DNA of 64,000 nucleotides, from IMG/VR virus record IMGVR_UViG_3300029355_000102. One strand, 5' to 3'. Within the stretch, counting starts at the first letter, position 1. The number at the start of each line of letters is the position of its first letter. This document shows, piece by piece, positions 19,638 through 23,016 of the stretch. The notes under the pieces were generated by a model that saw nothing but the letters and a program-made list of their open reading frames with translations, was not told the origin of the DNA and did not search any database. The DNA is from a virus. A program made the position numbers and the translations under genes.

Positions 19638-20957
19638 ATGGCAACTAAAGGATTAGGAAATGAAACATTGGTGACCTCCATTCTGCGTTCCAATACAGTA
19701 TTGGTGGAAGTTGGTGGTAGTGTCAGACGCATTACCGTGGAAAACTTCATGAATGCTATTAATAATGGTGACGAACAAATGTTGAGGCAGGTGGCTTGGG
19801 GGATTCCAATCAAACAATCAACCCAAAGTAGCACGAACTATGGTGTGATAGGTAATACAGCCGCATGGACAGAATACAAGTTGTATTGTGGCCGTTATCT
19901 CGTAACGAATGATGGAAGGGCTGCTAAAATGTCCCCTACCAATAGTGCGGTGTTTGCTGATGGTACTGCGGTGGATGAAACCAAAGGGCATGTGATGTGG
20001 ATAGGGCCACGTTTGTATTATCGTGTACAGACTGACAGTGTAAGTGGTGTACCAGTCTTATGGCTCTCGATGCTACCTATTGGCGGTGAGTTTATTGGTG
20101 GGGCAAATGGTGGAATGTATAACTGTATCGGTGCATACAAAGGCTCCATGTCAGGTAGCGCACTTGTTTCACGTTCAGGAGTTGCACCGGCAGGCAGCAA
20201 GACAATCAACGCATTTTGGAATGCTGCACAAGTGAACGGTAAGGAATGGGGACTGACCGATTACGATCAGAGAAAGCTTATTATGATGTTGGGGCTGTCC
20301 CAGTACGGAGATACCAATATTCAAGCCAAACTTGGTTATGGTGTGGGTGGTAGCTCCAGTAAAGACTTGTGGGCTGCTGCGGCAGCATTGCAAACTGGCG
20401 CAACAAAGAGTCTCGGTGACAATTGGGGCAAAATAGCTATTTCTGTGGTGAATGGAAGTAATACTGGAGTGGATTGTTCACGGGTGAACATGATGGGTAT
20501 AGAAGATCCTTATGGGTGGCAGTGGGAATTTCTGCAAGGAGTATTTTGCGGTAGTTCCAACAATAGTGCTCAAAGTGGAACGGAAATTTTCATTTACAAA
20601 GGAAACCGTTTACCGACTACTGCTGAATTAGCTGCGCATCCAAATGGTGAATACAGACAAGCTACCCGTCAGACAGCTTCCGGTCAAGTGCAGGAAATAA
20701 TTCTTGGGGAGCATTTTGATATTTTCCCGAAAAAGATTGGTGGAAACAGCACTTCTTATTGGGCTGATTATTCATGGGCAAACACTACTGGGCAGCTGGT
20801 TCTTTGGGGCGGTAATGCGAATGACGGTGCGAGTTGCGGCCTCGCTTATGCGAACTCGAATGCCGATTGGTCGCGCTCGCTTGCGTCTTTCGGCTCTCGC
20901 CTTGCGTATTTTGGGAATTTAACATTTGTTAGCGGTGCATCTTTGATGGCTGCATAA
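19638..20957 (+). CDS. DGR target protein 1: tail fibre/receptor-binding protein with C-terminal variable region
   Basis: 439-aa ORF; its last 108 nt of coding sequence (VR1) are a near copy of the downstream template repeat, differing only at TR adenines. Confidence 0.8.
   Translation: MATKGLGNETLVTSILRSNTVLVEVGGSVRRITVENFMNAINNGDEQMLRQVAWGIPIKQSTQSSTNYGVIGNTAAWTEYKLYCGRYLVTNDGRAAKMSPTNSAVFADGTAVDETKGHVMWIGPRLYYRVQTDSVSGVPVLWLSMLPIGGEFIGGANGGMYNCIGAYKGSMSGSALVSRSGVAPAGSKTINAFWNAAQVNGKEWGLTDYDQRKLIMMLGLSQYGDTNIQAKLGYGVGGSSSKDLWAAAAALQTGATKSLGDNWGKIAISVVNGSNTGVDCSRVNMMGIEDPYGWQWEFLQGVFCGSSNNSAQSGTEIFIYKGNRLPTTAELAAHPNGEYRQATRQTASGQVQEIILGEHFDIFPKKIGGNSTSYWADYSWANTTGQLVLWGGNANDGASCGLAYANSNADWSRSLASFGSRLAYFGNLTFVSGASLMAA
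20794..20901 (+). repeat. DGR variable repeat 1 (VR1)
   Basis: 108/108 nt alignable to TR 21081-21188; 11 mismatches, all at TR A positions; shared GC-rich 3' end ggctctcgcc. Confidence 0.85.
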
Positions 20958-21080
20958 TAGATTTTGAAATATTAGTTCTTTGAATTTCAATTAATTAAAA
21001 CCCGTCCACCTTCTCGTTTTACGGCAACGGATAACGGGACGAAAGCCGAAAGGCGTGGACGGTTGGCAGAGGGGAACAAG

Positions 21081-21188
21081 AGCTGGTTCTTTGGGGCGGT
21101 AATGCGAATAACGGTGCGAATTGCGGCCTCGCTTATGCGAACTCGAATAACGATTGGTCGAACTCGAATGCGAATATCGGCTCTCGCC
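21081..21188 (+). repeat. DGR template repeat (TR)
   Basis: non-coding copy rich in AAT/AAC; every VR1/VR2 difference maps to an adenine here. Confidence 0.85.
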
Positions 21189-21473
21189 ATACTTATTTAT
21201 CGTAGAGTAATCTGCGAGTTCTCCGAGCCATGACCTTGCAGGATTTATATCGTTGCAACGTAGTAATCAATTGGTTACGATGTCAGAAAATCAAGAATGC
21301 GGAAAGGTTGCCCAATTTGCGAAAGGCAACAAGCGGTGTTAGTAGGTTGGTTCTCGAAAGCTCCGGGCGAATTATTCAAGCAAGTAAAAACAGCTTGCAG
21401 TTATCGGAATAATTAAAATAGTCTGAACAAGACAAAATTGGAAGTATGGTGTAAATTTTAAAACAAAGCAGCA

Positions 21474-23016
21474 GTGAATATTGGAAGAAGTGATATTGAT
21501 TGGAAGAGTCTATCGCATAATGAAATTGATAGAATTATAGCGGAAAGGATAGAGGCTGACAATAAACGGATAGAAGCAAACGGTGGAAAGAAATCTAAAA
21601 GAGCCGGGTATATTCTTGAACGTATAGCAGAGATAAATAATTTACGTGAAGCGGACAAAGAAGCACAAGATGGGAAGGTTAAGAAAAACCGCTTTATCAG
21701 GCGGCATAATCTACACCCGGAAGAAGACCTCCGAGCTTTGCAGTTGATGATCCTGACATTGGATTTTCCGGCACCGGATTATACGTAATGAGAGTAAAAA
21801 GTGATGCAGGAAAGGTTCGAGATATTGTCAAACAGAAATATTTCCCGTGGCGTATATTGCATCATGCGATTATGAGGGTGATTGAAGAAGATGTTTATAG
21901 AAATTTGATTTATGATACAAGTGCGTGTATCAAGGGAAAGGGATTACATTTTGGAGTAAGGAGAATGAAACGTTTTCTTCACCGGTACCCGGAATACAAA
22001 TGGTTCGTAAAGACTGATTTCAAAAAGTTCTATCAAAGTATTCTTCATGAGCTTATTGTTGCTGCATTGAGAAGGAAATTCAAAGATGAACGATTTATTA
22101 AATTGATCGAGATAGCTGTTTTATCGTATGACAGCGGAACAGAGTTAGTTGACGTATTGGAGAATGAAGTTGAACGGAAGAAGAGGTGTTCCGATTGGAG
22201 CATTTACAAGCCAACCTATCGGGAATTTTGCGGCAAGCCGGATAGATCATACAATGAAGGAGAAATATCGTGTCAAATGCCTGCATAGATATTGCGATGA
22301 TAATGTTATGCTGGCTCGTTCTAAGGCCGAAGCGTTGTTTCTTATTCGTGCGTATGAACGGGAAAGTGCAAAAGTTGGGTTGGTAGTTAAAGCAAACAGT
22401 TGTATTGCTCCGATAGGAACAGAAACAAAAAATGGGAACAAAAAGCATAGAAAGCGAAAACGTAGTAAGAGGAAGAAGGATTAACTTTTTGGGCTATTGC
22501 TTCACGAAAGATAATGTTCGGATGCGTAAAAATATGAAAAAGAACTTTGCCCGAAAGGTGAAACGAATAAAAAGCCGGAAACGTAACCGCGAGATACGAG
22601 CTTCATACTGGGGCTGGTGCAAGTGGGGAGATTGTAAGAATTTATGGAGAACAATAACAAATAATGATATGAGTTTTGCAGATAAAGGTATCAAACAGAG
22701 TGGTAGAACGAAGGATGGAAAGAAGTTCTTCGATGTAAAAGAAACAAGATTGATGGATATTCTCAATGTCCCTATAACAGTAGTGGACTTTGAAACGAAT
22801 GTGAAGACAAAGCAAGGTGAAGGAAGATATTGTGTTCTTTTTGAACAGAACGGACAACGTAGCAAATTCATAACGAACTGTTACAACCTGAAAGATGTGT
22901 TGGATCAGGCTCGCGAAGCGGAGAATAACGGTCAAAAGATTTTTCCAGTGGAAAATGTGATTGTCAAGCGGCGTTCGTTAGGTGACGGGAAGAGTGCTTA
23001 TTATTTTGAAGAATAA
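21474..23016 (+). pseudogene. DGR reverse transcriptase, reading frame interrupted three times (pieces 21474-21788, 21788-22288, 22149-22484, 22432-23016)
   Basis: pieces carry RT motif 0/1/2 (VKSDAGKVRDI, KTDFKKFYQSI), DGR-hallmark GVPIGAFTSQ, catalytic YCDD and FLGY; pieces lie in frames 0,2,0,1. Confidence 0.8.

What the first reader, a model, noticed from the sequence alone, without database searches (positions are those of the whole stretch)
19638..23016. Diversity-generating retroelement with adenine-specific TR/VR pair on a tail-fibre gene
The last 108 nt of coding sequence of the 439-aa tail-fibre gene (VR1, 20794-20901) are copied 180 bp downstream as a non-coding template repeat (TR, 21081-21188). 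Across 108 aligned nt there are 11 differences. Every one is an adenine in the TR, mostly within AAT/AAC codons. The other 97 positions are identical, including the GC-rich 3' end ggctctcgcc, an IMH-like element. Immediately downstream lies an RT with the DGR-specific GxPIGxxTSQ motif and YCDD. This is the canonical signature of mutagenic homing diversifying a receptor-binding C-type-lectin-like domain.
Basis: partly seen in the sequence, partly recalled or inferred. Interest (0 to 1): 0.8.

Follow-up and report, generated by a model that had tools for sequence, protein, structure and literature searches.

The report
Known gut-phage DGR, three-frame reverse transcriptase
This is the hypermutation cassette (diversity-generating retroelement) of the common human-gut Bacteroides phage LoVEphage/Quimbyvirus; it is real and recently active in the lineage but already published, and the open point is how its reverse transcriptase, written in three overlapping reading frames, is made.

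Summary
TR 21081-21188 and VR1 20794-20901 align without gaps; all 11 differences are TR adenines (chance about 7e-9). The window is LoVEphage (99% identical to MW660583, PV4-TP1 and BI-TP1), the phage Benler et al. 2021 called Quimbyvirus. In 46 distinct VR/TR pairs from related loci, 59% of TR-A positions differ against 0.8% of other positions, so the element has been active recently. The target model (pLDDT 90.7) best matches solved DGR variable proteins (TaqVP, Mtd). A second VR lies at 35122-35228 (-).

It is written in three overlapping frames, with two +1 changes. These are kept in 65 of 73 scorable loci, down to 56% identity. This window also has a private 1-nt deletion at 21783. The three-frame RT and both VRs are already published (PMC8008677), read there as two programmed frameshifts.

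New here: each downstream piece keeps its own start codon (ATG in 15/18 and 17/18 lineages), no slippery motif is conserved, and the middle piece has a conserved basic tail. This favours three overlapping cistrons, a split RT. A covarying structured RNA follows the TR.

Verdict: confirmed, already known.

The parts
19638..20957 (+). DGR target gene 1: a 439-aa tail-module protein with a C-terminal C-type-lectin/FGE-like variable domain.
   Evidence: ORF. PHROG 5302 'tail protein', E 8e-43. AF2 model pLDDT 90.7. Best PDB fold matches are TaqVP 5vf4 (E 5e-10) and Mtd 1yu0-4.
20794..20901 (+). VR1. The diversified stretch runs from 20813 to 20889. The last 10 nt, GGCTCTCGCC, together with the following TTGCG (to 20906), form the IMH-like 3' boundary.
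   Evidence: 11 of 11 mismatches to the TR fall at TR adenines. It is the only hypervariable stretch among 7 genomes that are 99% identical. 48 distinct VR sequences occur in 52 loci.
21081..21188 (+). Template repeat (TR), non-coding. Its 3' end is GGCTCTCGCC followed by ATACT (an IMH*-like variant of the VR boundary).
   Evidence: The TR is identical in 29 loci whose VRs nearly all differ.
21189..21370 (+). Conserved structured spacer RNA between the TR and the RT. It is probably the counterpart of the BPP-1 'Sp' priming region. Helices: 21233-41/21253-61, 21263-67/21274-78 and 21307-12/21325-30. There is also a long-range pairing of the TR 3' end, 21174-78 with 21279-83.
   Evidence: Across 12 diverged loci, 29 predicted pairs are 95.3% paired, against 81.9% in shuffles (0 of 500 shuffles reach it). 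15 pairs show compensatory changes. Slid controls give 22-47% pairing. No Rfam family matches.
21474..22288 (+). RT-N piece: N-terminal extension and RT motifs 1-3. The conserved coding part ends near 22192, and the rest is an out-of-frame tail. In this window only, a 1-nt deletion at 21783 breaks it into ORFs 21474-21788 and 21788-22288.
   Evidence: Matches phrog_1423 RT profile positions 84-271. All other loci have a G at this position. The deletion allele is absent from three public collections.
22164..22484 (+). RT-M piece, in the +1 frame relative to RT-N. It runs from the conserved ATG at 22164 through GVPIGAFTSQ, YCDD and motif 6, and ends in the conserved basic tail KKHRKRKRSKRKKD.
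   Evidence: Matches phrog_1423 positions 283-364.
22432..23016 (+). RT-C piece, in the +1 frame relative to RT-M. It starts at the conserved ATG 22432 with a non-conserved leader, followed by GRRINFLGY (motif 7), the thumb, and a ~110-aa C-terminal beta-rich domain shared with the Hankyphage RT.
   Evidence: Matches phrog_1423 positions 365-533 and phrog_19665. AF2 gives pLDDT 85-92 for residues 100-194.
35122..35228 (-). VR2, the second and remote variable repeat. It lies near the 3' end of a 194-aa ORF (35036-35620, -) among methyltransferase genes.
   Evidence: All 10 mismatches to TR 21082-21188 fall at TR adenines. It shares the TTGCG boundary with VR1. The ORF's C-terminus matches the same PHROG as target 1.

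Best explanation
The region is the diversity-generating retroelement of Bacteroides/Phocaeicola phage LoVEphage (= 'Quimbyvirus').

How it works. A non-coding template repeat plus a structured spacer RNA is transcribed. An error-prone DGR-type reverse transcriptase copies it into cDNA and misincorporates opposite template adenines. The cDNA then replaces the variable repeat at the 3' end of two C-type-lectin-fold genes. One is a tail-module protein, presumably receptor-binding (VR1). The other is a small non-structural protein 14 kb away on the other strand (VR2). The shared GGCTCTCGCC+TTGCG boundary marks the targets, and the TR carries ATACT instead. The steps up to cDNA replacement are inferred by analogy with Bordetella phage BPP-1. 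The A-specific diversification itself is shown by sequence comparison.

The unusual part. The RT is written in three overlapping frames, N then M then C, each +1 relative to the one before. I think the most likely reading (about 55%) is that these are three separately initiated overlapping cistrons whose products assemble into one split RT. The published reading, two programmed +1 ribosomal frameshifts, is second (about 35%).

This window. In this particular genome copy a private 1-nt deletion at 21783 additionally breaks RT-N. This copy's RT may therefore be freshly inactivated, or the deletion may be a sequence error.
For: DGR identity and activity:
- Window TR/VR1: 11 of 11 mismatches at TR-A. 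TR/VR2: 10 of 10.
- Across 46 distinct VR/TR pairs, 635 of 1071 TR-A positions differ, against 30 of 3897 non-A positions.
- The TR is invariant in 29 loci.
- Seven genomes that are 99% identical differ massively only in the VR.
- The RT profile's best solved relative is bRT 8ub7, E 3e-37.
- The three RT pieces tile one RT profile consecutively.
- The target fold best matches TaqVP and Mtd.
- The spacer RNA is supported by covariation.

The frame changes are functional, not decay:
- Both +1 changes are present in 65 of 73 scorable loci, with RT-N identity from 100% down to 56%.
- More than 100 protein clusters at 50-95% identity cover only the N piece.
- All 10 SNPs between the window and PV4-TP1 in the RT are synonymous in the piece-specific frames.

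Separate initiation is favoured:
- An ATG in the downstream frame is present in 15 of 18 lineages at site 1 (expected 0.14, P about 5e-11). The other 3 have TTG.
- At site 2 it is present in 17 of 18 lineages (expected 0.33, P about 8e-8). The remaining one has GTG.
- The upstream-frame codon over the ATG is always NAT (15/15 and 17/17, against a 59% T background). At site 2 it varies among Asn, His, Asp and Tyr.
- The more distant P0107 subfamily (45% identity) has only break 2, and it too has the ATG.
- The M-frame basic motif RKRKRS/RKRQRG is kept through synonymous codon changes, so M is translated to its own end.
- No slippery motif is shared by all lineages at either site.

Literature: the same element, with two VRs and an RT in three frames, is described for Quimbyvirus in PMC8008677.
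Against: - No expression data exist, so neither separate initiation nor frameshifting is shown.
- Many lineages do carry 'AAA A/G' at site 1, where a Lys-tRNA could slip +1. The product of such a slip equals the naturally fused variant P0010.
- Under the split model RT-N carries an out-of-frame tail of 8-82 residues that is not conserved, which is odd for a subunit.
- The lineage counts are not phylogenetically independent, so the P values are optimistic.
- A split RT whose catalytic aspartates sit on two polypeptides has no precedent that I know of (own knowledge).
- No Avd-like accessory gene was recognised.
- No GC-rich hairpin was found after VR1.
- In this window the extra deletion at 21783 means the local RT may be non-functional.
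Confidence: 0.9

Rival explanations
1. The RT is made as one polypeptide by two programmed +1 ribosomal frameshifts (the published reading). One would occur near CGG AAG AAG AGG (about 22180-22192) and one between 22418 and about 22470. The short unshifted products would be by-products or regulators that keep RT levels low.
For: - Proposed for Quimbyvirus in PMC8008677.
- Both breaks are +1 and are conserved.
- Many lineages have AAA-A/G at site 1 and A-runs at site 2 that allow Lys-tRNA re-pairing.
- Natural in-frame variants (P0010, which lost one A at site 1, and P0014 at site 2) show that fused products are at least tolerated.
- The variable junk tail of RT-N would not matter if most useful product is the shifted one.
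Against: - No slippery sequence is common to all lineages. LoVEphage itself (AAG AAG AGG), L066, L069, L071 and L073 lack a re-pairing site at break 1.
- There is no conserved 0-frame stop or rare-codon context at the shift points.
- This reading does not explain why an ATG is conserved in the downstream frame at both sites, with NAT codons in the upstream frame.
- It does not explain the conserved basic tail of the unshifted M product.
- The phage's 8 tRNAs (found in the reference LoVEphage genome MW660583, since the window holds none) are ordinary, with no quadruplet anticodon.
Confidence: 0.35
2. The RT is a decaying pseudogene. The VR diversity would be historical, or made in trans by another DGR RT of the host or of a co-resident phage.
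For: - The gene is broken in every copy, and this window has a further private frameshift at 21783.
- Some assemblies carry internal deletions (P0001, P0002, P0006) or a compensating indel that destroys the PIG motif (P0003).
- Bacteroides commonly carry several DGRs (PMC12629997).
Against: - The same two breaks persist to 56% amino-acid identity, with each piece free of stops and conserved in its own frame.
- All 10 SNPs between window and relative are synonymous.
- Genomes 99% identical to one another have essentially unrelated VRs while the TR stays constant.
- The cognate spacer RNA shows compensatory evolution.
Confidence: 0.05
3. The two extra stretches at the frame breaks are untranslated 'coding gaps' that ribosomes hop over, from a GGA take-off codon to a GGA landing codon, as in T4 gene 60.
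For: Compared with the contiguous Hankyphage, BS-TP4 and BKO1-TP3 RTs, LoVEphage has extra sequence at exactly both breaks. Each stretch begins after a GGA and ends with a GGA. Their lengths are 40 and 55 nt, both 1 mod 3. Removing them gives ungapped fits to those RTs.
Against: - The first stretch is translated. Its peptide ELVDVLENEVERKK is conserved as protein in in-frame homologues P0010, P0004 and P0016.
- The second stretch encodes the conserved basic tail with synonymous variation.
- The GGA pairs are not conserved in diverged loci.
- No stop codon follows the would-be take-off codons.
Confidence: 0.01

Closest known systems
Quimbyvirus / LoVEphage DGR as described by Benler et al. 2021 (PMC8008677) and noted by Van Espen et al. 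2021 (PMC8525569)
   Same: It is the same phage species. The window is 99% identical to LoVEphage MW660583, and both papers match their phage to the B. dorei CP011531 prophage. The published description includes two VRs in C-type-lectin proteins, one after the tail genes and one remote on the opposite strand beside methyltransferases. [quoted passage not shown]
   Different: Nothing essential differs. Added here:
- Conservation of both frame breaks across a family down to 56% identity.
- Conserved start codons and a conserved basic tail, which point to separate cistrons rather than frameshifting.
- The covarying spacer RNA.
- A private extra frameshift in this copy.
Bordetella phage BPP-1 DGR (mtd-avd-TR-brt), the experimentally characterised prototype
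   Same: - TR/VR pair with adenine-specific mutagenesis.
- VR near the 3' end of a C-type-lectin-fold tail protein.
- A G/C-rich shared 3' element followed by a TR-specific difference (IMH/IMH*).
- A structured RNA between TR and RT.
- The RT's closest solved relative is bRT (8ub7).
   Different: - No avd gene was recognised.
- The TR follows the target gene directly.
- There are two targets.
- The RT carries an extra C-terminal domain and is written in three frames.
- No GC hairpin was found after the VR.
Hankyphage (Bacteroides phage p00) DGR
   Same: It has the closest RT outside the family (36% identity over 98% of the joined sequence), including the extra C-terminal domain. The layout is the same, VR then TR then RT, in a temperate Bacteroides phage.
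   Different: The Hankyphage RT is one contiguous 434-aa ORF. It lacks the acidic insertion before motif 4 and the basic stretch before motif 7.
Split polymerase genes (for example the two-gene DNA polymerase gp43A/gp43B of some T4-like phages, and archaeal split PolB; from my own knowledge)
   Same: One polymerase fold is encoded as separately translated pieces that must assemble.
   Different: Those are non-overlapping genes. Here the cistrons overlap out of frame by about 30-125 nt, there are three pieces, and the enzyme is a reverse transcriptase. Assembly has not been shown.

Membership tests
Diversity-generating retroelement (DGR) | TR/VR repeat pair whose differences are restricted to TR adenines | tested here: met
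   VR1 has 11 of 11 and VR2 has 10 of 10 mismatches at TR-A. Across 46 pairs, 59% of TR-A positions differ against 0.8% of non-A positions.
Diversity-generating retroelement (DGR) | RT of the DGR clade, with the I/LGxxxSQ motif 4 and YxDD | tested here: met
   IGAFTSQ and YCDD are present. The profile's best PDB hit is Bordetella bRT 8ub7, E 3e-37, against 3e-16 for the best group II intron RT. PHROG 1423 is tiled by the three pieces. No dedicated DGR-RT model was available in Pfam or NCBIfam; the generic RVT_1 model scores below its cut-off on each fragment.
Diversity-generating retroelement (DGR) | RT encoded as one intact ORF | tested here: not met
   The RT is in three overlapping frames in all 7 genomes and in 65 of 73 scorable related loci. 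It is in four pieces in this window. This is not a defining feature of function, since VR diversification continues in the lineage.
Diversity-generating retroelement (DGR) | VR at the 3' end of a target ORF that encodes a C-type-lectin (or Ig) fold | tested here: met
   VR1 ends 56 nt before the end of the CDS. The AF2 model (pLDDT 90.7) matches TaqVP, Mtd, PvdO and FGE folds.
Diversity-generating retroelement (DGR) | IMH at the VR 3' end, with a differing IMH* in the TR | tested here: met
   GGCTCTCGCC is shared. It is followed by TTGCG in both VRs and ATACT in the TR, and this difference is fixed in all 48 distinct VRs. Function has not been tested.
Diversity-generating retroelement (DGR) | Accessory protein (Avd or similar) next to the TR or RT | tested here: not met
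   No Avd-like hit was found for the neighbouring ORFs in Pfam, NCBIfam or PHROGs. The interval between the VR and the TR has no credible ORF. The extra C-terminal domain of the RT, or the 131-aa ORF 23038-23433, might substitute; this is untested.
Diversity-generating retroelement (DGR) | Hairpin or cruciform just downstream of the VR | tested here: not met
   Only AT-rich 7-10-nt inverted repeats occur more than 60 nt downstream of VR1.
Programmed +1 ribosomal frameshift | A conserved shift-prone site (re-pairing P-site codon plus a slow or stop A-site codon) at the frame junction | tested here: not met
   No motif is common to all lineages at either junction. Several lineages, including LoVEphage, lack any re-pairing codon at site 1, and there is no conserved 0-frame stop.
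Overlapping separately initiated cistrons (split enzyme) | A conserved start codon in each downstream frame, upstream of its conserved coding part | tested here: met
   ATG is present in 15 of 18 lineages (plus 3 with TTG) at site 1 and in 17 of 18 (plus 1 with GTG) at site 2. NAT codons in the upstream frame occur in 15/15 and 17/17. Actual initiation and assembly cannot be tested with these tools.
Translational bypassing (T4 gene 60 type) | An untranslated gap between matched take-off and landing codons | tested here: not met
   The candidate 'gaps' are conserved as protein in the upstream frame, and the GGA pairs are not conserved.

The most novel reading that the evidence does not exclude
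The DGR reverse transcriptase of LoVEphage/Quimbyvirus and of a large family of Bacteroidota phages is a three-subunit split enzyme. It would be translated from three out-of-frame overlapping cistrons: fingers, then palm with a basic tail, then motif 7/thumb plus an extra domain. Selection has maintained this arrangement over deep divergence. This differs from the published proposal of two programmed frameshifts.
Probability: 0.5. Interest if true: 0.6.

Novelty: already known. Interest (0 to 1): 0.35.

Why it matters
LoVEphage/Quimbyvirus is one of the most prevalent temperate phages of the human gut. It was detected in about 8% of 1,241 gut viromes (PMC12629997). Its DGR probably drives host-range shifts across Bacteroides and Phocaeicola.

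The element itself is published, so finding it again adds nothing. What stays open is how an RT written in three frames is expressed. The conserved start codons found here make that directly testable, because cultured isolates now exist (PV4-TP1, BI-TP1 and the induced LoVEphage strains).

If the enzyme is truly a three-piece RT, it would be, to my knowledge, the first natural split reverse transcriptase. It would also be relevant to engineering DGR-based mutagenesis tools.

The covarying spacer RNA gives a second, independent example beside BPP-1 for defining what a DGR RNA needs.

Tried and rejected
1. T4 gene-60-type hopping over two GGA-to-GGA gaps of 40 and 55 nt. Rejected because both stretches are conserved as protein in the upstream frame, and the GGA pairs are not conserved.

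2. A phage-encoded quadruplet-decoding tRNA that would cause the +1 shifts. The window has no tRNA genes. The 8 tRNAs of the reference LoVEphage genome MW660583 have normal 3-nt anticodons.

3. Sequencing error or pseudogene as the cause of the two shared breaks. Rejected because they are conserved in 65 of 73 scorable loci, and all 10 SNPs are synonymous.

4. A known RNA family in the TR-RT region. No Rfam match at E <= 1. A single-sequence fold of 21060-21480 is not distinguishable from shuffles, z = -0.43. Only the comparative analysis showed structure.

5. A GC-rich hairpin after VR1 or VR2. Not found.

6. Avd-like accessory genes. None recognised.

7. Sequence search of the target against the PDB. 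Nothing useful. The fold search was needed.

8. Fold of the RT-C C-terminal domain. No significant PDB match (best E 0.14). There is only a weak trend to OB-fold proteins.

9. The private 21783 deletion allele. No exact match in IMG/VR, GTDB genomes or JGI metagenomes.

10. A first attempt to fetch related loci with a 9-sequence full-length alignment failed because no stretch was conserved enough. A narrower alignment worked.
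Full report
**1. What is there**

The window is a copy of Bacteroides/Phocaeicola phage LoVEphage.
- Region 19638-23016 is 98.6-99.1% identical to MW660583 (LoVEphage), PQ571302 (Phocaeicola phage PV4-TP1), PQ571265 (Bacteroides phage BI-TP1) and three OY73/OY72 LoVEphage assemblies (annotations).
- TR 21081-21188 and VR1 20794-20901 align without gaps over 108 nt with 11 mismatches. All 11 are A in the TR, and 10 lie in AAY codons. The chance that 11 of 11 mismatches fall on the 24 A's is 7e-9.
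- Similarity ends abruptly on both sides.
- VR1 is not literally the end of the gene. 18 codons and the stop follow it.
- A BLAST of the TR against the whole window finds a second copy at 35122-35228 on the minus strand. It has 10 mismatches, again all at TR adenines. It lies near the 3' end of a 194-aa ORF (35036-35620) among methyltransferase genes.
- Both VRs continue after the shared GGCTCTCGCC with TTGCG, whereas the TR has ATACT. This difference is fixed in all 48 distinct VRs seen in related loci. It therefore behaves like an IMH/IMH* boundary.

**2. Is the element active?**

- Among seven genomes that are about 99% identical, the only hypervariable stretch is 20813-20889, inside VR1.
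- 66 further loci were fetched from IMG/VR. Across these and the earlier phage-record loci, 52 loci contain both repeats. They hold 48 distinct VRs, and 29 of them share exactly the same TR.
- Over 46 distinct in-register VR/TR pairs, 635 of 1071 TR-A positions differ (T 232, G 205, C 198). Only 30 of 3897 non-A positions differ.
- The 90%-identity cluster of the target protein holds 42,382 member sequences in the public protein collection.

This is the signature of recent and ongoing mutagenic homing in the lineage.

**3. The target**

- Pfam sees only a weak lectin-domain hit. PHROGs calls the protein a tail protein.
- An AlphaFold2 model built on 40 homologues has mean pLDDT 90.7.
- Its best solved-structure matches are DGR variable proteins: TaqVP 5vf4 (E 5e-10) and Mtd 1yu0-1yu4. 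These are followed by PvdO and formylglycine-generating-enzyme folds and TvpA.

Receptor binding itself is inferred.

**4. The RT is not one gene**

In the window, RT homology is spread over four ORFs: 21474-21788, 21788-22288, 22149-22484 (GVPIGAFTSQ, YCDD) and 22432-23016 (FLGYCF).

The first break is private.
- All six relatives, and every IMG/VR locus, have a G that the window lacks at 21783.
- The deletion allele has no exact match in IMG/VR, in GTDB species genomes or in JGI metagenomes. The intact allele is found in a Phocaeicola MAG.
- The other 10 differences between the window and PV4-TP1 in the RT are all synonymous in the piece-specific frames.
- The deletion is therefore very recent, or a sequence error.

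The other two breaks are shared by all copies.
- Both are +1 shifts: N to M near 22164-22192, and M to C at 22432-22484.
- The three pieces tile one RT profile consecutively: phrog_1423 positions 84-271, 283-364 and 365-533.
- A profile of the family finds Bordetella bRT (8ub7) as the best solved relative (E 3e-37). The best group II intron RT scores 3e-16.
- The closest RTs outside the family are those of Hankyphage p00, BS-TP4 and BKO1-TP3, at 33-36% identity. They are single ORFs and share the extra C-terminal domain.

**5. The breaks are conserved features**

- A search with the conceptually joined RT returned more than 100 protein clusters at 50-95% identity that cover only the N-terminal ~45% of the query. 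A few full-length relatives also appeared: P0004 at 54% and P0016-18 at about 43%.
- Mapping the three pieces by tblastn onto 76 sequences (the fetched loci plus the window) placed RT-N in 73. Of these, 65 have both +1 changes, with RT-N identity running from 100% down to 56%. The three Hankyphage-type RTs are in frame.

Each piece is thus under purifying selection in its own frame. This is neither a pseudogene nor an assembly artefact.

**6. How is it expressed?**

My first idea was ribosomal hopping, because each break coincides with extra sequence flanked by GGA codons. That idea fell.
- The first stretch is conserved as protein (ELVDVLENEVERKK) in in-frame homologues.
- The second stretch encodes a conserved basic motif.

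Evidence from the aligned junctions:
- (a) At site 1, an ATG in the M frame lies 5-8 codons upstream of the conserved KRG[VI]PIG in 15 of 18 lineages. The expected fraction is 0.14, giving P about 5e-11. The other three lineages have TTG.
- (b) At site 2, an ATG in the C frame lies 12-22 codons upstream of GR.IDFLGY in 17 of 18 lineages. The expected fraction is 0.33, giving P about 8e-8. The remaining lineage has GTG.
- (c) The upstream-frame codon that contains 'AT' is always NAT (15/15 and 17/17, against a 59% T background). At site 2 it varies among Asn, His, Asp and Tyr. What is kept is therefore the ATG, not the amino acid.
- (d) The M frame runs on through a basic motif, RKRKRS/RKRQRG, that is kept with synonymous codon changes. 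The C-frame leader over the same bases is not conserved.
- (e) No slippery motif is common to all lineages. LoVEphage itself and four other lineages have no re-pairing codon at site 1.
- (f) A more distant subfamily (P0107, 45% identity) lacks break 1 but has break 2, with its ATG.
- (g) The phage's eight tRNAs, found in the reference genome MW660583, are ordinary.

These points favour three separately initiated, overlapping cistrons, that is, a split RT. The pieces would be:
- RT-N: motifs 1-3.
- RT-M: motifs 4-6 plus the basic tail.
- RT-C: motif 7, the thumb and an extra domain.

Points that go the other way:
- Many lineages do have AAA-A/G at site 1.
- Natural fused variants exist: P0010 by loss of one A, and P0014 at site 2.
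- RT-N would carry a non-conserved out-of-frame tail of 8-82 residues.
- The lineage counts are not phylogenetically independent.

I put separate initiation at about 55%, two +1 frameshifts at about 35%, and other or mixed mechanisms at the rest.

**7. Other parts**

The 285 nt between the TR and the RT start are not a gene. They form a conserved structured RNA.
- Across 12 diverged loci, 29 predicted pairs are 95.3% paired, against 81.9% in shuffles (0 of 500 shuffles reach this).
- 15 pairs show compensatory changes. Slid controls fall to 22-47%.
- The structure includes three covarying hairpins and a pairing of the TR 3' end (21174-78) with 21279-83.
- No Rfam family matches.

By analogy with BPP-1 this is probably the spacer that positions and primes cDNA synthesis. 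That is inferred.

Other negative or weak results:
- No Avd-like gene was recognised.
- No GC hairpin follows VR1.
- The C-terminal domain of RT-C is confidently modelled (pLDDT 85-92) but has no significant solved relative. There is only a weak OB-fold trend.

**8. Comparison with the literature**

- Benler et al. 2021 (PMC8008677) describe 'Quimbyvirus'. It aligns to the same B. dorei CP011531 prophage as LoVEphage (PMC8525569).
- They report two VRs in C-type-lectin proteins, one after the tail genes and one remote beside methyltransferases. They found 22 adenine sites varying among near-identical genomes.
- Van Espen et al. 2021 (PMC8525569) noted the tail-collar-fibre/RT pair in LoVEphage.
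- A 2025 study ran DGRscan on induced gut prophages, including LoVEphage isolates, and described second, remote VRs (PMC12629997).
- I found no later paper that tests how the three-frame RT is expressed.

**9. Verdict**

- The increments here are the depth of conservation of the two frame changes, the conserved start codons and basic tail that argue for a split RT rather than frameshifting, the covarying spacer RNA, and a private extra frameshift in this copy.
- Interest is modest for the finding as submitted. The expression mechanism of the RT is a worthwhile and now easily testable question.

Noticed in passing
window 21189-21370: The spacer between the TR and the RT is a conserved structured RNA. 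It has three covarying hairpins and a pairing to the TR 3' end. The 60-aa ORF 21230-21412, and the two small CDSs annotated here in MW660583, are probably spurious.
   Followed up: yes
window 21783: The window has a private 1-nt deletion: it reads TATACGTAATG where all relatives read TATAGCGTAATG. This splits RT-N and creates a TAATG stop/start overlap. The allele is absent from IMG/VR, GTDB genomes and JGI metagenomes. It is either a very recent inactivation or a sequence error.
   Followed up: yes
window 35036-35620 (-), VR2 at 35122-35228: A second DGR target: a 194-aa non-structural protein with a C-terminal VR, sitting among DNA methyltransferase genes. It matches the published 'remote VR' of Quimbyvirus. 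Its function is unknown.
   Followed up: partly
window 22735-23016 (RT-C residues ~100-194): An extra beta-rich C-terminal domain on the RT. It is shared with the Hankyphage-type RTs and occurs as a stand-alone PHROG (19665). The model is confident but has no significant PDB fold match, only a weak OB-fold trend. It could stand in for the missing Avd.
   Followed up: partly
window 22138-22190 and 22445-22481: RT-N ends in an acidic helix-like stretch (TELVDVLENEVERKK), and RT-M ends in a strongly basic tail (KKHRKRKRSKRKKD). In the few in-frame relatives whose sequence I read (P0014, P0004, P0016), the basic tail is absent. The two might be complementary assembly handles. This is pure speculation.
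   Followed up: no
L003 (OY731444), equivalent to window 20822-20824: One LoVEphage genome has a 3-nt in-frame deletion inside VR1, at an AAY-rich spot. This shows that the VR also tolerates codon indels.
   Followed up: no
proteins P0001, P0002, P0006, P0003: Several public assemblies carry LoVEphage RT genes with internal deletions between short purine-rich repeats, or with a compensating indel that replaces GVPIGA by CSNWS. These may be defective variants or assembly artefacts.
   Followed up: no
window 23038-23433: A 131-aa acidic ORF lies directly after the RT (phrog_11557, unknown function). It sits where the Hankyphage-type phages BS-TP4 and BKO1-TP3 carry a gene annotated as DUF4376 domain-containing. 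Whether it belongs to the DGR is unknown.
   Followed up: no
window 21003-21063: An inverted repeat, CCGTCCAC ... GTGGACGG, lies just upstream of the TR in the target-TR intergenic region. I noticed it by eye in the sequence. It could be a terminator of the target gene or the 5' part of the DGR RNA.
   Followed up: no
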